The notes: generated from the letters alone by a model not told the origin. Counted from the stretch's first letter, positions 16,272 to 60,668 are shown. The stretch: DNA of 60,668 bases from an uncultured Candidatus Saccharibacteria bacterium (GCA_964402895.1 CAYODR010000004.1:34209-94876), one strand, 5' to 3'. A program made the numbers and translations.

Positions 16272-19200
16272 ATGCAACAACAACCACAAAAAAGCGATAG
16301 AGCACAAAAAGAAGAAAAGATTTTAAAATTCTGGCAAGAGAATAAAATCTTTGAAAAGACTTTAGAAAAAGATTCAGCAAAAGGAGAATTCGTTTTCTAT
16401 GAAGGTCCACCTACTGCAAATGCAAAACCGGCACTTCACCATATGGCAGCTAGAGCTTTTAAAGATGTTGTACCACGCTATAAAACTATGGCGGGGTTTA
16501 AGGTTGCAAGAAGAGCGGGTTGGGATACACATGGATTACCCGTTGAACTTCAAATAGAAAAAAAACTCGGTTTAACTTCTAAAAAAGATATTGAGGAATA
16601 TGGTATCGCCAAGTTTAATAAAGAATGTAAAGACAGTGTTTTTACATACATCAAAGATTGGGAGACATTTACTGATCGTATAGGGTATTGGGTAGATAAA
16701 GACAGTGCGTATTACACTTTTAATAATTCATATATTGAATCTCTGTGGAACATTGTTGGTGTAGCTGATACTAAAAAACTTTTATATAAAGATTACAAAA
16801 TCATTCCTTGGTGTGCGCGTTGTGGTACAGGACTTTCTTCACACGAACTTGCACAAGAGTATCAAGATGTAAAAGACCTATCTGTCTATGCAGAATTTAA
16901 AATAAAAGATAATGAAAAGTTCAAAGACACAAGTATCGTAGCTTGGACTACAACTCCATGGACTTTGCCTGGCAATGTGGCACTTGCTATGGGGGCAGAG
17001 ATTGAATATGCACATGTATTGACTAACGAGAAAAAACTGATCATTGCAAAAGAGAGATTAGAATCTTTAGTTTCAGAATATGAAGTTTTAGGTGAATATA
17101 AAGGTAAAGATTTTGAAGGAATAGAGTATGAGCCACTATATCCGTATCTTATAAATAATATTTCTGCAGCTGAAGCAGGAAAAGTTAAAAATGCCTATAA
17201 AGTATATTTGGCGGATTTTGTGACAACTACTGATGGTACAGGTATTGTACATGTTGCGCCAATGTATGGAGCTGATGACTTTGATTTGGGTACAAAATAT
17301 AATTTACCAAAATTCCACACAGTGGGAGTGGATGGAAGATTTATTGAAGGAACCGACTTTCTTGCTAATAGATTTGTAAAAGAAGAAGATGTGGCGGTGG
17401 ACATTGTTAAAGACTTGGCTCATCGTGGACTTTTATTTAAAAAAGAAAAGTATGAACACAGCTATCCACATTGCTGGAGATGTAAGACCCCGCTTCTTTA
17501 TTATGCAAGAGATTCTTGGTTTATTAGAATGTCATCACTTCGTGATGATTTGGTTCAAAATAATGAAAGTATTAATTGGGAACCATCGCATATTAAAAAT
17601 GGTAGGTTCGGAGAGTGGCTTAAAGATATTAAAGATTGGGCTATTTCAAGAGAAAGATATTGGGGGACGCCTCTACCTATTTGGACAGCAGAAGACGGCG
17701 AGCTTTTGGTCGTAGATAGTATTCAAAAAATTAAAGATTTTTCACAAAAATTTAAAAATACTTATACCCTTATTCGTCACGGCGAGACAGGATATAATCT
17801 AAAAGATGTTTGGAGTTATGGTAATGAATCAAATGACCCGCTTACTCCAAATGGGGAAAACCAGATGAGAGAGTCTGCTCTGAATTTAGGCCAGATTGAT
17901 TTGATAATATCTTCTCCATTTTTACGAACTAAACAAAGCGCTTTGATTGTTGCAGATAAACTCGGCATTGATAAAGAAAGTATTATCTATGATAAAGCTT
18001 TTGAGGAATGGAATCCTGGTAAAGACTTTGATGATATTCCAAATTCAATATTTTTTGATTCTGTTGATGAGTTAAATGAGTATGGATTTAAATCAGAAGA
18101 TGGAGAATCTTTTCGGGATGTTATAAAAAGAGTAGGTGAGGGCTTGGCACTACTTGAAGAAAAATACGAAGGAAAAAATATTCTCATTGTGGCACATGGA
18201 GGGATACTTCGTGCGCTTGAATTTATTTCAAACGGAGTTTCAGTTGATCGGTATAAATTTTTAAAACAAAATTATAATAGTTTTAAAAATGCAGAATTTA
18301 GAAAAATAGATTTTGTAAAACTTCCAATTAACGAAAATTCAGAACTTGATTTGCATAAGCCATATATAGATGACATAGATTTATTTAAAGATGGTAAAAA
18401 GTTTACGCGTGTTAAAGAGGTGATGGATGTGTGGTTTGATAGTGGGTCTATGCCTTTTGCGCAAATGCATTATCCTTTTGATAATAAAGAGTATGTTGAT
18501 AATGTTGCTTTTCCTGCAGACTTTATTTCAGAAGGTATTGATCAAACTCGCGGATGGTTTTATACACTTCACGCAGTGGCGGCTATCTTGGGCAAGGGTG
18601 CGGCCTATAAAAATGTTATTTGTCTAGGACATTTGCTTGATGCGCAAGGTAAAAAGATGTCTAAATCTATCGGAAATATTGTTGACCCATGGGAACAAAT
18701 GGATAAATATGGAGCAGACACTCTAAGGCTTTGGATGTATTCTGTCAATCAGCCGGGTGATTCAAAAAACTATGACGAAAGAACCGTGCTTGAAATCAAT
18801 AGGCAGATTTTTGGACTCTTATTTAACATGCTGTCTTTTTATGAGCTTTATAGAAATCAAAGTATAGAGGATCAAGATATAAAACCTCAGAATATTTTGG
18901 ATATCTGGATTCTTTCCAGATTAAATGAGCTTGTTTCTTTTACTACAAACAGCCTTGATAATTATAAACTCTTTGAACCAATCCGTGCCCTGAGAGTATT
19001 CATTGATGATTTTTCTACATGGTATTTAAGAAGGTCTAGAGAAAGAATAAAAGAAGGAGATATTGAGGCTAAATTTACACTTTATAAAGTTATTAAAACT
19101 ATTTCAAAAATTATTGCTCCTTCCGCGCCCTTTGCTGCAGAAGAAATCTGGCAAATATTAAAAACAGATCAAGATGAAGAAAGTGTACACTTAAGTAATT

Positions 19201-19703
19201 GGCCATCTGTCGGGGAAATAAATTCTGAAGTTTTAAATAACATGCAGACTGTAAGAGATATCTGTACTTTAGGAAATGCTCTTAGAAAAAAAACAGGTAT
19301 TGCAGTAAAACAACCGCTTGCAAGTATTGTTTTGAAACAAGAATTGCTTAGTGAAGAATACAATCTTTTGATTAAAGATGAGCTTAATATCAAAAATGTT
19401 TTAAGAGATGAAAGTCAGGAGGATGAAGCGATGCTTGATATAGAAATAACTCCAGAATTAAGAGAAGAAGGTATGGCGCGAGAATTTATTAGACTTGTCC
19501 AAGACAAAAGAAAATCTGCCGGACTTAAACCAGATGATATTATTATACTTGAAATAAAAACCTCTGAAGACGGAGAAAGAATTATCAGCAAATTCAGCGC
19601 AGATATTACTAAGACTGTGGGAGCAGATAGTATTCTATTCAAAGAATTTAATGGAGAGCCGGAAAATATTGGGGGGATTGATTTTGTTATCAACATTTCA
19701 TAA
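16272..19703 (+). CDS. ileS: isoleucine--tRNA ligase with a nested histidine-phosphatase-like domain
   Basis: GWDTHGLPVE, CP1 block TTTPWTLPGN, ISRERYWGTPLPIW, DVWFDSGSMPF and KMSKS. Codons of about 497-690 carry RHG and AHGG phosphatase motifs. Confidence 0.95.
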   Translation: MQQQPQKSDRAQKEEKILKFWQENKIFEKTLEKDSAKGEFVFYEGPPTANAKPALHHMAARAFKDVVPRYKTMAGFKVARRAGWDTHGLPVELQIEKKLGLTSKKDIEEYGIAKFNKECKDSVFTYIKDWETFTDRIGYWVDKDSAYYTFNNSYIESLWNIVGVADTKKLLYKDYKIIPWCARCGTGLSSHELAQEYQDVKDLSVYAEFKIKDNEKFKDTSIVAWTTTPWTLPGNVALAMGAEIEYAHVLTNEKKLIIAKERLESLVSEYEVLGEYKGKDFEGIEYEPLYPYLINNISAAEAGKVKNAYKVYLADFVTTTDGTGIVHVAPMYGADDFDLGTKYNLPKFHTVGVDGRFIEGTDFLANRFVKEEDVAVDIVKDLAHRGLLFKKEKYEHSYPHCWRCKTPLLYYARDSWFIRMSSLRDDLVQNNESINWEPSHIKNGRFGEWLKDIKDWAISRERYWGTPLPIWTAEDGELLVVDSIQKIKDFSQKFKNTYTLIRHGETGYNLKDVWSYGNESNDPLTPNGENQMRESALNLGQIDLIISSPFLRTKQSALIVADKLGIDKESIIYDKAFEEWNPGKDFDDIPNSIFFDSVDELNEYGFKSEDGESFRDVIKRVGEGLALLEEKYEGKNILIVAHGGILRALEFISNGVSVDRYKFLKQNYNSFKNAEFRKIDFVKLPINENSELDLHKPYIDDIDLFKDGKKFTRVKEVMDVWFDSGSMPFAQMHYPFDNKEYVDNVAFPADFISEGIDQTRGWFYTLHAVAAILGKGAAYKNVICLGHLLDAQGKKMSKSIGNIVDPWEQMDKYGADTLRLWMYSVNQPGDSKNYDERTVLEINRQIFGLLFNMLSFYELYRNQSIEDQDIKPQNILDIWILSRLNELVSFTTNSLDNYKLFEPIRALRVFIDDFSTWYLRRSRERIKEGDIEAKFTLYKVIKTISKIIAPSAPFAAEEIWQILKTDQDEESVHLSNWPSVGEINSEVLNNMQTVRDICTLGNALRKKTGIAVKQPLASIVLKQELLSEEYNLLIKDELNIKNVLRDESQEDEAMLDIEITPELREEGMAREFIRLVQDKRKSAGLKPDDIIILEIKTSEDGERIISKFSADITKTVGADSILFKEFNGEPENIGGIDFVINIS

Positions 19704-34772: not shown

Positions 34773-35291
34773 ATGAAAGTGTTAAATAATATTGCTTTTA
34801 TTGATGGGCAAAATTTGTACTTAGGATCTACTAAAAATGGCTGGAGTATAGATTTATTAAAATTTAGAATTTATTTAAAAGATAAATACAATATTTCCGA
34901 GGCCTATTACTTTTTAGGTTTTATTAATCCTGAATATTATGAATTGTATTCAGAAATACAAAAATCAGGTTTTATAATTCAATTCAGAGAGCACAATACT
35001 AATATGGTTGGAGTAAAGAAGGGGAATGTAGATACTGATATTGTTTTTTCCATAATGAAATCATTAATAGATGAATATAGTATGGATGGTGTTGTTTTAG
35101 TTTCCGGTGATGGTGATTATAAAAAAGTTGTGGATTATCTTATTTTGAAAGGAAAACTTAAAAAAGTTTTATTTCCATCAAAAAAATATTCATCTTTATA
35201 TAAAAAAATAACAGTTAAATATTTCGATACTCTTTATTCAGATTTTGTTAGACAAAAAATAGAAAAAAGAAAAAGCGAACTTAGGGACTAG
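34773..35291 (+). CDS. NYN (LabA-like) domain protein, copy 1
   Basis: IAFIDGQNLYLG...YFLGFI...KKGNVDTDIV...VLVSGDGDY. It is a paralog of the three NYN genes at 52.9-54.9 kb. Confidence 0.8.
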   Translation: MKVLNNIAFIDGQNLYLGSTKNGWSIDLLKFRIYLKDKYNISEAYYFLGFINPEYYELYSEIQKSGFIIQFREHNTNMVGVKKGNVDTDIVFSIMKSLIDEYSMDGVVLVSGDGDYKKVVDYLILKGKLKKVLFPSKKYSSLYKKITVKYFDTLYSDFVRQKIEKRKSELRD

Positions 35292-35384
35292 CCCGTTCGC
35301 TTGCTTTTTCGTGGTAATATATAGATTATACTATAATATTACTAAAATAAGCAAGTTTTATTTGTCAAAAATGGGGAAATGGGG

Positions 35385-38548: not shown

Positions 38549-38938
38549 TTAGTTGATAATCTCACCAGACTGCGCCACCATTGATGCGGGTTCGACGACC
38601 CATTGGTATGTTTTTGTTTCTGTCTTGCCAAATCTATCCTTGAGCGCAACTTCAACTATATTATACCCTGAGGAAAGTATGATTGCATCTTCAAAGTTTC
38701 CTTTACGATCCATATTGACACTTCGTCCATTTATCAGAAGCTCTATTGCACCATGAGCAATCCCCGATAGGGGGAGGAAATTGTCATTTAGGGTGGTGCC
38801 ATTTGAAGCTGTGACTATTTGAAAAGATGTACCAAAAAATGCATCTTTGATGTTGGCAAATACTAAAGTTAAAATAGCAATACCAAGTATTCCAATGATT
38901 GAATTTTTTATTGAAAATGATAATTTATTTTTACTCAT
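38549..38938 (-). CDS. membrane-anchored small beta-rich protein, unknown function
   Basis: N-terminal TM helix, then an Ig-like pattern (L.INGRSV..D..G.F......L..G.N.V.V.). Confidence 0.6.
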   Translation of the reverse strand: MSKNKLSFSIKNSIIGILGIAILTLVFANIKDAFFGTSFQIVTASNGTTLNDNFLPLSGIAHGAIELLINGRSVNMDRKGNFEDAIILSSGYNIVEVALKDRFGKTETKTYQWVVEPASMVAQSGEIIN

Positions 38939-52208: not shown

Positions 52209-52314
52209 GTGCTCATTGTATAATATTTTAATTATTTGTAAATGGTCGAGCTATTTTTATAAATATAAAGTGTAAATAATATTTTATCAAAATTTGAACA
52301 CACTTTCGTATTAT

Positions 52315-52710
52315 ATGAGTATAAAAAGATTTAAAAAATGGTTTTTAATTAAAGAAAAGATAGATGAGCAAAATATAAATAAACTCCCGCTATTTTCAGA
52401 AGGAGAGGTCTGGTGGTGTGGAATAGGTGAGAATGTTGGTATTGAAATTAATGGAAAGAGTGAAGTATTTTCTCGTCCTATAGTTATTTATAAGAAATTA
52501 AGTCGTATGGGTTTTATGGCAATCCCTATGTCTACTCAGTTTAAAAATGGTAGTTGGTATGTATCTATTTATTTTCAAGAAAAGCAGGTTGTATTAAATA
52601 TTTCTCAAGCTCGCGTAGTAAGTTCTTCAAGGTTATATTCTAGGATAGGATCACTTGATGAAAATGATATAAAGATTTTGAAAGAAAAATTTATAGAATT
52701 ATATAAATAA
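52315..52710 (+). CDS. MazF/PemK-fold protein (long N-terminal variant)
   Basis: EGEVWWCGIGENVGIEINGKSEVFSRPIVIYKKL...AIPMSTQ...LNISQARVVSSSRL..RIGSLD follows the PemK pattern G-[DE]-V-[WY]..G.E..G.RP..V ... Q.R..S..RL. The start was set to the ATG after the shared leader. Confidence 0.7.
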   Translation: MSIKRFKKWFLIKEKIDEQNINKLPLFSEGEVWWCGIGENVGIEINGKSEVFSRPIVIYKKLSRMGFMAIPMSTQFKNGSWYVSIYFQEKQVVLNISQARVVSSSRLYSRIGSLDENDIKILKEKFIELYK

Positions 52711-52884
52711 AAAAACTTATCCTCATAGATAAGTTTTTTTATTTATATTTTCCTCTATCTCTCAATAGAGGTACGCGGGAAACCCCGAATATGTTTTTAG
52801 TATAACAAAAATACTTAAAGGGTCAAATCAAAAAAGTGAATACGATTTTATCAAAATTTGAACACACTTTCGTATCATATAGAT

Positions 52885-53397
52885 ATGGGAAATAATTATG
52901 CATATATTGATGCTTCAAATCTTAGGTTCGGTATTTTACAAAATAATTGGGAGATAGACTATAAATCTTTTAGATCTTGGCTTAGAGACAAGTTTGGTAT
53001 TCAAAAAGCAATTCTTTTTATAGGATTTATTTCTGAGAATATTGATATTTATAATCATTTAAAATCAATTGGATATGATATTGTTTTTCGCCCTACTTTA
53101 AAAAATAAATATGGAGAAACAAAAGGGAATGTAGATGGTGAACTAATACTTCAAATAGCAAAAGATTTCTATGAACAAAAACTTAAATCAGTAATTCTTG
53201 TTTCTGGGGATGACGATTATTGTTGTATCGTTGAGTTTCTTAAAGATAAAAAAATACCCATTACGATAGTATCACCTAATAAAAAATACCTCTCACTCCT
53301 TCTTAAAAGAACTAATGTACCAATTGTTATCTTGGAAGATATGAAAAATAAACTTCAGAAAAAACCTAAAATGAAAAAACCCCCAGATAGACCGTAA
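52885..53397 (+). CDS. NYN (LabA-like) domain protein, copy 2
   Basis: NNYAYIDASNL...LFIGFI...KGNVDGELIL...ILVSGDDDY. The ATG sits directly after the shared leader. Confidence 0.8.
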   Translation: MGNNYAYIDASNLRFGILQNNWEIDYKSFRSWLRDKFGIQKAILFIGFISENIDIYNHLKSIGYDIVFRPTLKNKYGETKGNVDGELILQIAKDFYEQKLKSVILVSGDDDYCCIVEFLKDKKIPITIVSPNKKYLSLLLKRTNVPIVILEDMKNKLQKKPKMKKPPDRP

Positions 53398-53516
53398 TCT
53401 ATCAAGGGTTTTTTTCTTGTTTATAGTTTTATTATATCAAATTTATTTCTAGCGTCAATCTTAAATTGTGAATACAACTTTATCAAAATTTGAACTCTAT
53501 TTCGTATCATATAGAT

Positions 53517-53996
53517 ATGGAAAATAATTATGCATATATTGATGGGCAGAATTTGTATTTGTCTATAAAAATATTAGGCTGGAAAATAGACTGGAAAAGA
53601 TTTAGAGTTTATTTAAAAGAGAATTATTTAATAGAAAGAGCTTTTTTATTTATTGGGTATATTGATGGTAATAATAATTTATATTCAAGATTGCAAGATG
53701 CTGGTTTTATTTGTATTTTTAAGCCAGTATTAAAATATAAAAATGGAATAATAAAAGGTAATGTTGATACAGAGTTGGTTTTGCATACTATGATACATTT
53801 TAAGGATTTTAAGAAAGCTGTTTTAATTACTGGTGATGGGGATTTTTATTGTTTGGTTCAATATCTTTTAGAAAAAGATAAATTAAAAACAGTACTTGTT
53901 CCTAATAGAGATAAATATTCTGCATTATTAAAAAAGTTTGCTAAGAAAAACATTGCTTTTATGAATGATCTTAAAAATTTGATAGGTGAAAAATAA
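53517..53996 (+). CDS. NYN (LabA-like) domain protein, copy 3
   Basis: NNYAYIDGQNLYL...LFIGYI...KGNVDTELVL...VLITGDGDF. Confidence 0.8.
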   Translation: MENNYAYIDGQNLYLSIKILGWKIDWKRFRVYLKENYLIERAFLFIGYIDGNNNLYSRLQDAGFICIFKPVLKYKNGIIKGNVDTELVLHTMIHFKDFKKAVLITGDGDFYCLVQYLLEKDKLKTVLVPNRDKYSALLKKFAKKNIAFMNDLKNLIGEK

Positions 53997-54036
53997 AAAG
54001 GACCCTACAAAGACAAAACATTGTAGGGGACTTTTT

Positions 54037-54433
54037 GTGGTGATATTTCTATTATACACATTTAGTATTTTTCAGCAATCTTAAAATGTGAATATGATTT
54101 TATCAAAATTTGAACGCTATATTTGTACCATATACATATGGATATATAAAAAAGCCTCCTTAGGTAGTTAGCCGTTCGGATGCTTTTTCGTCGTAATATA
54201 TTTCCATTATACACATCTAGTCTTTTTCAGCAATCTTAAAATGTGAATATAAAATTTTAGAATCTTTAATAAAAGAAATTATATAAAAACGAATGCTGGT
54301 GTGATTTCCACACCAGCATTCTCGGAGGCCAAAGCCATAATATCTTTATTATACACACCCACACATTTTGAGCAAATCAAAAAAGTGAATACGACTTTAT
54401 CAAAATTTGAACACACTTTCGTATCATGTAGAT
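54037..54433 (+). pseudogene. two gutted cassettes (junction plus start codon fused to gene 3' ends)
   Basis: After a full junction the reading frame is only ATG GAT ATA TAA (54138-54149). A terminator module follows that closely resembles the one after NYN copy 1 (35270-35310). A second truncated junction (54190-54258) is fused to a 3' end resembling that of the MazF-like gene (AGAAATTATATAA). Confidence 0.55.
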
Positions 54434-54946
54434 ATGAAAAATAATTACGCATTTATTGATGGAGCAAACTTACACAAAGGAGTTGATTCTTTAGGTTGGA
54501 ATTTAGATTATCAAAAGTTTTTTATATGGATAAAAGAAAAATATAAAATTAAAAAAGTTTTTATATTTTTAGGTTATATAGATAAATATCGTAATCTTTA
54601 TAAGTTATTAGAGAGATATGGTTATATAATTATTTTCAAGGAAGTAGTTTATGATATTCACGGAAAAGCAAAAGGGAATTGTGATGCAGATCTTGTTTTG
54701 CATGCTGTCATTAATTATTATGAAAAGTATTTTGAAAAAGTTTTATTAGTTTCTAGTGATGGGGATTATTCATCTTTAGTAAAATTTCTATTAAAGAATA
54801 ATAGTTTAATATCAATAGTATCTCCAGCAAATGAGAAAAAGTGCTCAATTTTATTAAAGAGAACCGGTGCGAAGATATCTTATATTAAAGATCAGTATGA
54901 AAAACTTAGAATAAAAAAAGCCCCCGATAGAGACAAAACTCTATAA
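54434..54946 (+). CDS. NYN (LabA-like) domain protein, copy 4
   Basis: NNYAFIDGANLH...IFLGYI...KGNCDADLVL...LLVSSDGDY. Confidence 0.8.
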   Translation: MKNNYAFIDGANLHKGVDSLGWNLDYQKFFIWIKEKYKIKKVFIFLGYIDKYRNLYKLLERYGYIIIFKEVVYDIHGKAKGNCDADLVLHAVINYYEKYFEKVLLVSSDGDYSSLVKFLLKNNSLISIVSPANEKKCSILLKRTGAKISYIKDQYEKLRIKKAPDRDKTL

Positions 54947-55127
54947 GGGTCTTTTTTGTGGTGATATATCCATTATACACATCCATTTATTTTGAGCAAA
55001 CCCAAAATGTGAATACGACTTTATCTAGATTTTATATCTATCACCGCCGACCAAGGGTCGGCGGTATTAGATGGTGAGGGGAGTAATGTATTGATACTAG
55101 TACTCGTCATAGATAGTATATATACAT

Positions 55128-56340: not shown

Positions 56341-56364
56341 AACTAGTTTTAAATATAAAAAACA

Positions 56365-56394
56365 TTGACTTTTTAGCGATAAAAAGTATATTAT
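56365..56394 (+). promoter_or_regulatory. sigma70-type promoter of rplJ-rplL
   Basis: TTGACT-N18-TATTAT. Confidence 0.6.
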
Positions 56395-56399
56395 AGGGC

Positions 56400-56489
56400 A
56401 GTGTAGATCGAAGACAGTAGGCATATAAGTCCTACCGAGGTCGAAAACTCACTTTTAAATCTACACTTACATTAAAAATTTTATTTATT
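56400..56489 (+). promoter_or_regulatory. structured rplJ leader (L10-leader-like)
   Basis: The outer stem pairs GTGTAGAT (56401-56408) with ATCTACAC (56459-56466). The inner hairpin pairs GTAGG with CCTAC. Confidence 0.5.

Positions 56490-59765: not shown

Positions 59766-60668
<903 letters not shown>

What the first reader, a model, noticed from the sequence alone, without database searches (positions are those of the whole stretch)
52262..55035. Cassette array: diverged RNase-fold genes each sit behind a near-identical terminator/promoter/5'-leader junction
What the sequence shows: one MazF/PemK-fold gene and three NYN-domain genes sit head-to-tail. The three NYN proteins are only loosely similar to each other by eye (roughly one residue in three identical), and MazF is an unrelated fold. 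Despite this, the about 50 nt immediately 5' of every ATG is almost invariant (GTGAATAYGAYTTTATCAAAATTTGAACACACTTTCGTATCATATAGAT-ATG). A further 40-60 nt upstream (..ATTATACACA..TTT(C/G)AGCAA..AAAA(T/A)GTGAATA) is also conserved. Each ORF also runs into a homologous terminator hairpin, AAAAA(G)CCC-stem-loop-stem-GGG-TTTTT-GTGGTGATAT. Its stem sequences differ between copies while pairing is kept, which gives the ORFs related KK.PDR-type tails. A plausible promoter, TT(G/C)AGC-N16-TA(Y)GA(Y), sits in the junction, and the leader has no Shine-Dalgarno sequence. Inference: a non-coding junction conserved far better than the genes it drives suggests selection, gene conversion, or a shared recombination or regulatory site. 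The layout resembles an integron-style or phage-defence-style hotspot of nuclease cassettes, but no integrase is present in the window.
Basis: partly seen in the sequence, partly recalled or inferred. Interest (0 to 1): 0.8.

Follow-up and report, generated by a model that had tools for sequence, protein, structure and literature searches.

The report
RNase genes paired with antisense small RNAs
The repeated "junction" is a two-way promoter block between gene units, each made of a ribonuclease gene and a short RNA gene on the opposite strand; this RNase/small-RNA pairing occurs across the Patescibacteria and looks like an undescribed toxin/RNA-antitoxin-like arrangement.

Summary
One MazF-fold gene and three NYN genes sit head to tail. 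The NYN genes are 40-42% identical in protein and 48-54% at third codon positions. The about 60 nt before each ATG is 76-97% identical.

The interpretation needs correcting in three ways.
1. The conserved "ATTATACACA...TTTSAGCAA" is a minus-strand promoter, TTGCTS-N16-TGTGTATAAT. It points back into the hairpin and would make a roughly 52-nt RNA that overlaps the 3' end of the upstream NYN gene.
2. This hairpin-plus-promoter module is not special to this genome. It follows the NYN gene in essentially all of about 80 Patescibacteria genomes examined. The promoter sits at a fixed distance, the stem covaries strongly, and a DnaA-box motif is often just upstream. The MazF-like gene has its own conserved convergent small RNA and no MazE.
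3. The "5' leader" is promoter DNA. TATCAT lies 6 nt before the ATG, the geometry of a leaderless mRNA, and no gene in the window has a Shine-Dalgarno sequence.

The three NYN genes belong to three old subfamilies, so the array is not a recent duplication. The two-way promoter block between units has been homogenised. I found no integrase. The likely function is an RNA-antitoxin-like control of each RNase, and no Rfam family or paper I searched describes it.

The parts
52261..52314 (+). J0: copy of the plus-strand promoter block in front of the MazF-like gene. It contains a DnaA-box-like TGTAAATAA at 52271-52279. Compared with the NYN copies it lacks the last 6 nt, so TATTAT abuts the ATG.
52315..52710 (+). 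MazF/PemK-fold RNase gene (131 aa). No MazE-like ORF lies upstream.
   Evidence: Pfam PF02452 at 29.5 bits. Homologs in 6 other loci also lack a conserved upstream antitoxin ORF.
52700..52792 (-). Predicted MazF-associated small RNA: 5'-AUAUUCGGGGUUUCCCGCGUACC, a hairpin, then a terminator. It converges on the MazF gene and overlaps its stop codon and terminator.
   Evidence: The same RNA with a promoter is conserved downstream of MazF homologs of 46-79% identity. 6 of 11 pairs show compensatory changes. Fold energy -38.4 kcal/mol, z = -7.5.
52799..52826 (-). Promoter of the MazF-associated small RNA: TTGACC-N16-TATACT with TG upstream.
52825..52884 (+). J1: plus-strand promoter block for NYN1. 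DnaA-box-like AGTGAATAC at 52835-52843, -10 TATCAT at 52873-52878, then 6 nt, then the ATG.
52885..53397 (+). NYN1 (170 aa). It belongs to a distinct, widespread NYN subfamily.
   Evidence: Pfam. Homologs of 64-74% identity in other genomes.
53373..53424 (-). NYN1-type small RNA: 5'-AUAAACAAGAAAAAAACCC, hairpin, GGGGGUUUUUUC.
   Evidence: Covariance model R1 scores it 54.9 bits. The same variant is found in L092, L094 and L096, which were not used to train the model, at 50-57 bits.
53431..53458 (-). Promoter of the NYN1-type small RNA: TTGACG-N16-TATAAT with TG upstream (11 of 12 matches).
53457..53516 (+). J2: plus-strand promoter block for NYN2 (box 53467-53475, -10 at 53505-53510).
53517..53996 (+). 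NYN2 (159 aa), a third NYN subfamily. Its stop codon lies just before the hairpin.
   Evidence: Relatives reach 60% identity over most of their length, against 40-42% to NYN1 and NYN3.
53994..54044 (-). Small RNA of the NYN2 unit: 5'-AUCACCACAAAAAGUCCCC, hairpin, GGGUCCUUUUU.
   Evidence: R1 scores it 42.1 bits. Fold.
54051..54078 (-). Promoter of the NYN2-unit small RNA: TTGCTG-N16-(TGTG)TATAAT, an extended -10 promoter.
54077..54149 (+). J3: the most diverged copy of the plus-strand promoter block (-10 TACCAT at 54126-54131). Only a 3-codon remnant ORF, ATG GAT ATA TAA (54138-54149), follows. This is an emptied unit, called E1 here.
54148..54199 (-). E1 small RNA, an orphan with no RNase gene. 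Its sequence type is the one that follows a different NYN subfamily in L044.
   Evidence: 85% identity over 40 nt to the 3' module of the second NYN gene of L044. R1 scores it 17.1 bits.
54206..54250 (-). E1 small RNA promoter (TTGCTG-N16-TGTGTATAAT) plus a DnaA-box-like TGTGAATAT at 54242-54250. The plus-strand promoter block is cut off right after the box (J4).
54280..54341 (-). E2 small RNA, an orphan of unknown type with a strong terminator hairpin.
   Evidence: Fold energy -27.4 kcal/mol, z = -5.9. Listed as a terminator. No match in the 108 loci fetched.
54348..54433 (.). J5: two-way promoter block. The minus-strand part is TTGCTC-N16-TGTGTATAAT (54348-54375). The plus-strand part has the box at 54384-54392 and -10 TATCAT at 54422-54427, and serves NYN3.
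54434..54946 (+). NYN3 (170 aa), a member of the commonest Patescibacteria NYN subfamily. Its last 10 codons lie inside the hairpin.
54914..54965 (-). NYN3-type small RNA: 5'-AUCACCACAAAAAAGACCCUUAUAGAGUUUUGUCUCUAUCGGGGGCUUUUUU.
   Evidence: R1 scores it 72.9 bits. Alignment A3 and covariation.
54972..55026 (.). J6: small RNA promoter (TTGCTC-N16-TGTGTATAAT, 54972-54999), box TGTGAATAC at 55008-55016, and a plus-strand promoter block cut off after TTTATC. This is the end of the array.
34773..35318 (.). Outside the array: a fourth NYN gene (34773-35291, plus strand) with its own convergent small-RNA-like module (35269-35318, minus strand; -10 at 35325-35330). It does not have the array's plus-strand promoter block.

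Best explanation
The region is an array of six units. Four are complete and two have lost their coding sequence. Each complete unit has an RNase gene (MazF-fold or NYN) on the plus strand and a cognate small RNA gene of about 50-90 nt on the minus strand. The small RNA converges on the RNase gene, and the two share one bidirectional intrinsic terminator hairpin.

The 'junction' between units is a two-way promoter block of about 110 nt. On the minus strand, an extended -10 sigma-70 promoter with a DnaA-box-like motif just upstream fires the small RNA. On the plus strand, a -10 element (TATCAT) lies 6 nt before the next ATG and would make a leaderless RNase mRNA.

Shown by sequence comparison:
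- The NYN-plus-small-RNA pair and the MazF-plus-small-RNA pair are ancient modules, normally single-copy, spread across Patescibacteria.
- The three NYN genes in the array come from three old subfamilies.
- Only the promoter block is homogenised within this genome.

Inferred: each small RNA is an antitoxin-like negative regulator of its RNase. I favour a mechanism like par (Fst/RNA II). The complementary terminator hairpins of mRNA and small RNA would kiss and then zip into a duplex of about 33-52 bp over the 3' end of the mRNA, which for NYN3-type genes includes the stop codon. That would lead to cleavage and decay or to non-stop transcripts. Some parts of the small RNAs lie outside the overlap and are still strongly conserved, so direct recognition by the RNase protein may also occur.

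Also inferred: the near-identity of the promoter blocks comes from gene conversion between neighbouring units (RecA and RecO are encoded in the window), together with selection for common regulation, possibly linked to DnaA.
For: 1. Minus-strand promoter. In 84 of 84 modules a promoter scoring at least 8 of 12 lies at the same place. Counts for the -35 are T83 T84 G80 A74 C70, and for the -10 T83 A84 t60 a50 a54 T84. G is at -14 in 55 of 84. The -10 ends 6-7 nt before alignment column 1 in 75 of 84.
2. Transcript start. Conservation jumps from about 0.1 bit to more than 1.2 bits exactly at that predicted +1.
3. Covariation. The hairpin is 94% paired. 152 cells changed on both sides, against 46 +/- 10 in shuffles and 21 or fewer in the slid controls. 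Stem changes alter the encoded peptide tail, and the position of the stop codon relative to the hairpin varies. The structure, not the peptide, is therefore what is selected.
4. Module distribution. It was found at 82 of 83 NYN loci by nhmmer. The one miss, L083, carries a diverged version readable by eye. Covariance model R1 finds NYN1-type copies it was not trained on at 50-57 bits.
5. DnaA box. A match with 1 or fewer mismatches lies within 35 nt upstream of the -35 in 33% of loci, against 3.5% background. Perfect boxes occur in 14% against 0.26%.
6. MazF-like gene. A conserved convergent small RNA with its promoter is present in 7 loci, with compensatory changes in 6 of 11 pairs, and no conserved MazE.
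7. Leaderless geometry and absence of SD sequences genome-wide.
8. Old paralogs set against plus-strand promoter blocks of 76-97% identity and small RNA modules of 53-71%.
9. The only incomplete units are small RNAs without an RNase (E1, E2). No RNase in the array lacks a small RNA.
10. par is a precedent for convergent RNAs that share a bidirectional terminator and start pairing at the terminator loops (PMC7472228).
Against: - No transcript data exist. The small RNAs, their start sites and the leaderless starts are all predictions.
- G-U against A-C counts in the variable inner stem favour the minus strand only modestly (23 against 12), and both strands fold about equally well.
- In the four homogenised window copies the -35 is only TTGCTS (3 of 6), so these copies depend on the extended -10.
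- The conserved 5' parts of the small RNAs show no better complementarity to their own mRNAs than shuffled sequences do. A pure antisense mechanism therefore does not explain why their sequence is conserved.
- Near-universal single-copy presence of NYN plus small RNA could mean a housekeeping RNase under tight control rather than a toxin.
- The MazF copy of the plus-strand promoter block lacks the 6-nt spacer, so its start site is unclear.
- Fewer than half of the loci have a recognisable DnaA box.
Confidence: 0.6

Rival explanations
1. Same anatomy, different mode of action. The small RNA neutralises or guides the RNase by binding the protein directly, as a type III-like RNA antitoxin, a decoy or a substrate, rather than by pairing with the mRNA.
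For: - Parts of the small RNAs that lie outside the overlap with the mRNA are strongly conserved. In the NYN small RNA, nt 1-8 have A7 at 100%, C8 at 90% and U2 at 97%. The 5' hairpin of the MazF small RNA, AYAUUCGGGRAUWCCCGC, is conserved across proteins of 46-79% identity.
- The outer stem and part of the loop of the NYN hairpin are nearly invariant across phylum-level lineages.
- Each NYN subfamily has its own small RNA variant.
- No compensating complementarity to the mRNA was found.
- ToxN-type type III toxins have a Kid/MazF-like fold (my own knowledge, not checked here).
Against: - Known type III antitoxins are tandem repeats encoded upstream on the same strand and are cut out by the toxin. 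Here there is a single unit, convergent, with its own promoter and terminator.
- The obligatory 3' overlap and the shared terminator would be an unexplained coincidence.
Confidence: 0.25
2. The minus-strand promoter and hairpin make no functional RNA. They act only at the DNA or transcription level, for example as an insulator or polymerase-collision device that stops read-through from the RNase gene, or as a DnaA-bound site.
For: The hairpin is a good terminator on both strands. The DnaA-box enrichment shows the site may bind a DNA-binding protein.
Against: A terminator or insulator does not need a sequence-conserved transcribed segment whose conservation starts exactly at +1. It also does not need subfamily-specific sequence or covarying stems with conserved loop bases. 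The MazF-associated RNA has a second conserved hairpin that is not a terminator.
Confidence: 0.08
3. Integron-like or other site-specific cassette array. The hairpins are recombination sites and the units are mobile cassettes captured by a recombinase encoded elsewhere.
For: - The layout is modular, with unrelated cargo (MazF and NYN) behind the same junction.
- There are emptied and truncated units.
- The subtypes of the junction are shuffled relative to the cargo.
- One MazF homolog lies near a serine recombinase in another genome.
Against: - No integrase, transposase or serine recombinase is present in the 60-kb window, which is core chromosome with aminoacyl-tRNA synthetases, RecA, FtsK and ribosomal proteins.
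- The hairpins have A-run and T-run flanks and no GTTRRRY-type cores.
- The same hairpin module is fixed at single-copy NYN genes in varied genomic contexts in about 80 genomes.
- Every unit has its own promoter.
- The junction's plus-strand part was not found in any other sequence searched.
Confidence: 0.04
4. Ordinary tandem duplication of one NYN gene, with the junction simply evolving more slowly than the genes.
For: The genes are head-to-tail paralogs with homologous flanks.
Against: - NYN3 is 56-64% identical to homologs in distant Patescibacteria, NYN1 is 64-74%, and NYN2 up to 60%. They are only 40-42% identical to one another.
- Their small RNAs are subfamily-specific and match those of other genomes.
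- A non-homologous MazF gene carries the same promoter block.
Confidence: 0.03

Closest known systems
par(pAD1) Fst/RNA II and related type I toxin-antitoxin loci with 3'-overlapping antitoxin RNAs (txpA/RatA, bsrG/SR4, yonT/SR6)
   Same: [quoted passage not shown] The complementary terminator stem-loops are where pairing starts (PMC7472228; PMC5848175, listed).
   Different: - Type I toxins are small hydrophobic peptides. Here the partner is a 131-170 aa RNase-fold protein.
- No second region of complementarity like par's direct repeats was found.
- The small RNA sequence is conserved across a whole superphylum.
- A DnaA-box motif sits at the small RNA promoter.
- Several units are concatenated.
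SymE/SymR (E. coli)
   Same: A larger toxin with RNA-cleaving activity is held in check by a cis-encoded antisense RNA (my own knowledge, not checked here).
   Different: SymR overlaps the 5' end and the translation start of symE. Here the overlap is at the 3' end and terminator. The protein folds are unrelated.
Type III toxin-antitoxin systems (ToxIN, CptIN, TenpIN)
   Same: An endoribonuclease toxin is paired with a structured, sequence-conserved RNA that is specific to its toxin family.
   Different: The type III antitoxin is a tandem-repeat array upstream on the same strand, separated by a terminator and processed by the toxin. Here there is one convergent unit with its own promoter.
Type II MazEF/PemIK
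   Same: The first gene has the PemK/MazF fold.
   Different: No MazE/PemI-type antitoxin ORF is present, either here or next to 6 homologs. A conserved small RNA gene occupies the downstream flank instead.
Integron gene-cassette arrays
   Same: A head-to-tail series of short, unrelated genes is separated by hairpin-containing repeats, and some units are empty.
   Different: There is no IntI, no attI or attC core sequences, and no common Pc promoter. The repeats are promoters and terminators, and the hairpins are ancient parts of the cargo rather than of the junction.

Membership tests
NYN domain nucleases (PF01936, LabA-like) | Match to the family profile above the curated cut-off; conserved acidic residues | tested here: met
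   47-57 bits against a cut-off of 24.2 for four genes. The motif aspartates (IDG at D9, N.D at D84, the first and third positions of SDGDY at D109 and D111) are invariant in alignment A2. Nuclease activity was not tested.
Type II MazEF/PemIK toxin-antitoxin | PemK/MazF-fold toxin | tested here: met
   PF02452 at 29.5 bits against a cut-off of 23.1.
Type II MazEF/PemIK toxin-antitoxin | Adjacent co-transcribed protein antitoxin gene (MazE/PemI) | tested here: not met
   There is no ORF between the divergent sugar-transferase gene and the ATG. Upstream neighbours of 6 homologs are unrelated genes (adenylate kinase, DUF362, a divergent gene and others).
Type I toxin-antitoxin (3'-overlap / par-like class) | Convergent small RNA gene with its own promoter that overlaps the 3' end of the toxin mRNA or shares a bidirectional terminator with it | tested here: met
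   Met at the sequence level. There is a conserved promoter at a fixed distance, a hairpin flanked by A-run and T-run, and overlap with the last codons of NYN. No transcript evidence.
Type I toxin-antitoxin (3'-overlap / par-like class) | Toxin is a small, usually hydrophobic peptide | tested here: not met
   The partners are RNase-fold proteins of 131-170 aa.
Type I toxin-antitoxin (3'-overlap / par-like class) | A second region of complementarity to the translation-initiation region of the toxin mRNA (DRa/DRb in par) | tested here: not met
   Duplex energies between the small RNA 5' part and its own mRNA are no better than shuffled: NYN -8.4 against -9.2 kcal/mol; for MazF only 1 of 7 loci is clearly better.
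Type I toxin-antitoxin (3'-overlap / par-like class) | The small RNA lowers toxin translation or mRNA stability, and the toxin is growth-inhibiting | not testable with these tools
   Needs expression experiments.
Type III toxin-antitoxin (ToxIN-like) | Antitoxin is a tandem array of repeats upstream of the toxin on the same strand and is processed by the toxin | tested here: not met
   No tandem repeats lie upstream. The RNA gene is single, downstream and convergent.
Type III toxin-antitoxin (ToxIN-like) | The RNA binds the endoribonuclease protein and inhibits it | not testable with these tools
   Only indirect hints are available: conserved non-overlapping RNA segments and subfamily-specific variants.
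Integron | IntI tyrosine recombinase with attI and Pc next to the array | tested here: not met
   All ORFs of 110 aa or more in the 60-kb window were scanned, apart from five that overlap longer ORFs and one 129-aa ORF (38549-38938, minus strand). There is no recombinase other than RecA and RecO. The rest of the genome was not available.
Integron | attC sites: imperfect inverted repeats bounded by R''/R' cores (RYYYAAC ... GTTRRRY) | tested here: not met
   Read directly from the sequence. The hairpins are bounded by A5-7 and T5-7 runs followed by GTGGTGAT or CTTGTTTAT, with no GTTRRRY core.
Sigma-70 promoter, extended -10 class (small RNA promoter) | TGnTATAAT, with or without TTGACA 16-18 nt upstream, at a conserved distance from the transcribed element | tested here: met
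   TGTGTATAAT occurs in 4 window copies. The hexamers are conserved in 84 of 84 homologous sites. Activity was not tested.
DnaA box | TTATNCACA 9-mer | tested here: inconclusive
   Window copies match at 7-8 of 9 positions. In homologous loci a box with 1 or fewer mismatches occurs in 33% against 3.5% background, and a perfect box in 14% against 0.26%. DnaA binding is not testable here.
Rfam families (release 15) | Covariance-model match | tested here: not met
   No family hits either small RNA, at E up to 10 in the window or at E up to 5 in 10 homologous loci.

The most novel reading that the evidence does not exclude
Patescibacteria carry a previously unrecognised class of RNA-controlled RNase modules. 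A standalone NYN or MazF-fold RNase is paired with a cognate, sequence-conserved convergent small RNA of about 50 nt that shares its terminator and acts as its antitoxin, by antisense pairing and/or direct binding. The small RNA promoter is wired to DnaA, which would tie RNase activity to replication status. In this genome several such modules from different subfamilies have been gathered into one array and placed under a single homogenised two-way promoter block.
Probability: 0.4. Interest if true: 0.85.

Novelty: new variant of a known kind. Interest (0 to 1): 0.78.

Why it matters
- NYN (LabA-like) proteins are a very large family whose function is called unknown in the 2017 classification of PIN-like nucleases (PMC5499597). 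An obligatory conserved small RNA partner gives a concrete, testable handle on what they do.
- Patescibacteria make up a large share of bacterial diversity and have tiny genomes with few known regulators. I found almost no literature on their small RNAs. A small RNA conserved at the nucleotide level across the group would be one of their first candidate riboregulators. Its promoter motif also suggests that DnaA acts as a transcription factor there.
- If the small RNAs neutralise the RNases, this extends RNA-antitoxin systems to full-size MazF-fold and NYN RNases, and it explains "orphan" MazF genes that have no MazE.
- The array is a clean natural example of concerted evolution confined to a roughly 110-nt two-way promoter block while the cargo genes stay ancient and divergent.

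Tried and rejected
- Rfam at relaxed thresholds on the window and on 10 homologous loci. Only chance hits appeared, including a 28-bit 'trpB motif' hit that did not recur in the other loci.
- Exact-pattern scans for the plus-strand promoter core (TTTATCAAAATTTGAACNCNNTTT). The scan of metagenome contigs gave 7 hits and the scan of viral contigs gave 1. All are chance matches with no similarity in the flanks. This part of the junction therefore looks specific to this genome.
- A second pairing site like par's, between the small RNA 5' part and its own mRNA. Energies were no better than shuffled. A weak resemblance between the complement of the small RNA tail and the codons for the SSDGD motif (18 of 80 best sites) was judged not significant.
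- The in-frame TTG upstream of every ATG, which would add MNTLSYHIDM to the proteins. I rejected it as a start codon. The stretch is shared with the unrelated MazF gene, homologs have no such N-terminus, and the TATCAT-6 nt-ATG geometry matches this genome's other leaderless promoters.
It is absent from J1 and J2 and is poor in three further copies.
- PADLOC and NCBIfam gave only a generic NYN domain model and no hit for a known defence system.
- Fetching the rest of the source contig through its own proteins returned only short fragments of the same organism.
- Literature searches on NYN with antisense or toxin, small RNAs in Patescibacteria or CPR, MazF with an RNA antitoxin, and Parcubacteria RNA motifs found no description of these modules.

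Full report
Yes. Window 52315-52710 encodes a PemK/MazF-fold protein. 52885-53397, 53517-53996 and 54434-54946 encode NYN (PF01936) proteins. The three NYN proteins are 40-42% identical, 56-61% in nucleotides and 48-54% at third codon positions, which is close to saturation for a genome of about 30% GC. The 32-nt core before each ATG occurs four times with 3 or fewer mismatches, against none expected. The 54-60 nt before the ATGs are 76-97% identical, and J1 and J5 match at 58 of 60 positions.

Seven junction copies align. Two of them, between NYN2 and NYN3, have no gene behind them. The last copy is cut off at about 55026. The homologous hairpin follows the three NYN genes only, because MazF has a different terminator.

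**2. What the 'upstream promoter-like' block really is.**
Read on the minus strand, ATTATACACA...TTT(C/G)AGCAA becomes TTGCT(G/C)-N16-TGTGTATAAT. This is an extended -10 sigma-70 promoter that points back at the hairpin. The hairpin has an A-run on one side and a T-run on the other, so it can terminate transcription in both directions. The predicted product is a roughly 52-nt RNA, 5'-AUCACCAC-AAAAAAG-hairpin-UUUUUU. It is antisense to the 3' end of the NYN gene, and in NYN3 that overlap includes the last 10 codons.

**3. The module is ancient and widespread.**
I kept the best 80, all but a few labelled as Patescibacteria of many lineages.

- Nearly every one ends with the same nucleotide-level module: GAAAAAGCCCCCGAT-stem-GAC..-stem-ATAAGGGTCTTTTTCGTRGTGAT, then a -10 and a -35 on the opposite strand. 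nhmmer found it at 82 of 83 loci. The one miss, L083, carries a diverged version.
- In the 82-sequence alignment A3 the stem is 94% paired. 152 cells changed on both sides, against 46 +/- 10 in shuffles and 21 or fewer when the partner columns are slid.
- Stem changes alter the encoded C-terminal tail (KAPD-x-DGT-x), and the stop codon falls before, inside or after the hairpin in different genomes. The structure is therefore what is selected, not the peptide.
- The minus-strand promoter is present at the same place in 84 of 84 modules. Counts for the -35 are T83 T84 G80 A74 C70, and for the -10 T83 A84 T60 A50 A54 T84. G is at -14 in 55.
- The -10 ends 6-7 nt before alignment column 1 in 75 of 84. 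Per-column information jumps from about 0.1 to more than 1.2 bits exactly there. That pattern is what a transcript start looks like.
- G-U against A-C counts favour the minus strand, but only modestly in the variable inner stem (23 against 12).
- A covariance model built from A3 finds NYN1-type copies it was not trained on at 50-57 bits, and also a few orphan copies.
- No Rfam 15 family matches.

**4. A DnaA-box motif.**
Just upstream of the small RNA -35, many loci carry TTATCCACA or its complement TGTGGATAA, the canonical DnaA box (TTATNCACA, from my own knowledge). A box with 1 or fewer mismatches lies within 35 nt in 28 of 84 loci, against 3.5% background. Perfect boxes occur in 12 of 84, against 0.26%. 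Binding by DnaA is an inference.

**5. The '5' leader' is promoter DNA.**
None of 46 ORFs in the window has a GGAG, GAGG or AGGA motif upstream. At least ten have a TATAAT-like hexamer 6-8 nt before the ATG, for example TTTACA-N16-TACAAT-6 nt-ATG for the divergent sugar-transferase gene. NYN genes in other genomes show the same geometry. The array's TATCAT-ATAGAT-ATG fits this pattern. The mRNAs are therefore most likely leaderless, and the invariant 50 nt is core promoter plus upstream sites. That stretch includes a TCAAA-A-TTTGA palindrome and an A/T-rich segment. The MazF copy lacks the 6-nt spacer, so its start site is unclear.

**6. The array is not a recent duplication.**
NYN3 is 56-64% identical to homologs in distant Patescibacteria, NYN1 is 64-74% identical to a different subfamily, and NYN2 reaches 60% with others. 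Among themselves they are 40-42% identical.

- NYN1-type genes in other genomes carry their own small RNA variant (5'-AUAAACAAGAAAAAGACCCYUGAUAUGUUACGGCAU...) with a TTGACA-N16/17-TAT(A/C)(A/C)T promoter, and they are single-copy there.
- A fourth NYN gene in the window (34773-35291) has a module of yet another type and does not have the array's plus-strand promoter block.
- The 'empty' unit E1 keeps a small RNA of the type that follows the second NYN gene of L044 (85% over 40 nt) and only ATG-GAT-ATA-TAA of a coding sequence. It is a unit that lost its gene. E2 keeps a small RNA of unknown type.
- In other genomes the modules are almost always solitary.

**7. The MazF-like gene follows the same logic.**
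Its homologs (46-79% identity) have no conserved MazE-type neighbour. All have a convergent small RNA gene with a TTGACW-N16/17-TATAMT promoter. The RNA has a sequence-conserved 5' hairpin (AYAUUCGGGRAUWCCCGC) and a covarying second hairpin that acts as the terminator and overlaps the MazF stop region. 6 of 11 pairs show compensatory changes in 7 sequences.

**8. What is homogenised.**
Within the window the small RNA modules are 53-71% identical and the coding sequences 56-61%. The plus-strand promoter block is 76-97% identical, and the small RNA -10 (TGTGTATAAT) is identical in four units whose small RNAs differ. Subtypes of the block (J1/J5; J2/J3/J4; J6) do not follow either the upstream small RNA type or the downstream gene type. 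This mosaic is expected from gene conversion or unequal recombination between neighbouring blocks, and RecA and RecO are encoded in the window. The plus-strand part was not found anywhere else: 7 metagenome hits and 1 viral hit were all chance matches, and there was nothing in the 108 fetched loci.

**9. Integron or mobile-cassette idea.**
The window is core chromosome, with aminoacyl-tRNA synthetases, RecA, FtsK, RNase R, ribosomal proteins and a polysaccharide gene cluster. It has no integrase, transposase or serine recombinase. The hairpins lack attC cores, each unit has its own promoter, and the hairpins belong to the ancient cargo rather than to the junction. PADLOC gives only a generic NYN domain hit.

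**10. Mechanism.**
Shown: the anatomy, the conservation and the covariation. Inferred: that the RNAs are made, and that each regulates its RNase.

The nearest precedent is par of pAD1. There a roughly 40-nt antitoxin RNA and the toxin mRNA come from convergent promoters, share a bidirectional terminator, and begin pairing through the complementary terminator loops (PMC7472228). I favour that mode here, with duplex formation over the 3' end of the mRNA leading to decay or to non-stop transcripts.

There is no second complementary region like par's, and the non-overlapping parts of the small RNAs are still strongly conserved and subfamily-specific. Direct recognition by the RNase, in a type III-like manner, is therefore a serious alternative or an additional mode. 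The only incomplete units are small RNAs without an RNase, never the reverse, which fits an antitoxin-like role, although the numbers are small.

**11. Verdict.**
The structure is best described as an array of RNase plus convergent-small-RNA modules separated by a homogenised two-way promoter block. The modules themselves are a widespread feature of Patescibacteria that I could not find described in Rfam or in the papers searched.

Noticed in passing
window 34773-35318: A fourth NYN gene (172 aa) lies far from the array. It has its own convergent small-RNA-like module (35269-35318, minus strand; R1 scores it 22.8 bits) and a different plus-strand promoter with a leader of about 35 nt.
   Followed up: partly
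window, all genes: No Shine-Dalgarno-like motif lies upstream of any of 46 ORFs. At least ten genes have a TATAAT-like hexamer 6-8 nt before the ATG, so leaderless mRNAs seem to be the norm in this organism.
   Followed up: partly
window 16272-19703: The isoleucyl-tRNA synthetase-like ORF (1143 aa) has a histidine-phosphatase (His_Phos_1) domain inserted at residues 499-677, which splits the catalytic domain.
   Followed up: no
window 59766-60668: The 23S rRNA gene starts here with protein-coding genes upstream and no 16S gene, and no tRNA was found anywhere in the window. The rRNA genes appear to be unlinked.
   Followed up: no
window 55036-55072: A GC-rich inverted repeat (ATCTATCACCGCCGACC / GGTCGGCGGTATTAGAT) lies right after the truncated last junction. 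It has no T-run on either side, and its role is unknown (repeat I21).
   Followed up: no
L001:11920-11970, L059:4940-4990, L079:3621-3671: Extra copies of the NYN-type small RNA module (34-38 bits) occur in other genomes without an adjacent NYN gene. These are orphan small RNAs.
   Followed up: no
L092:3555-5483: In one genome the NYN1-type gene and its small RNA lie immediately downstream of a reverse transcriptase and bAvd pair of the kind found in diversity-generating retroelements.
   Followed up: no
L102/L103: A MazF-like homolog with its small RNA lies about 1.2 kb from a large serine recombinase gene, so it may sit on a mobile element in that genome. In L106 a MazF-like gene and an NYN gene lie within 1.5 kb of each other.
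   Followed up: no
window 56345-56489: A consensus TTGACT-N17-TATATT promoter and a structured-looking leader of about 90 nt precede rplJ. Rfam's L10 leader model did not reach its threshold.
   Followed up: no
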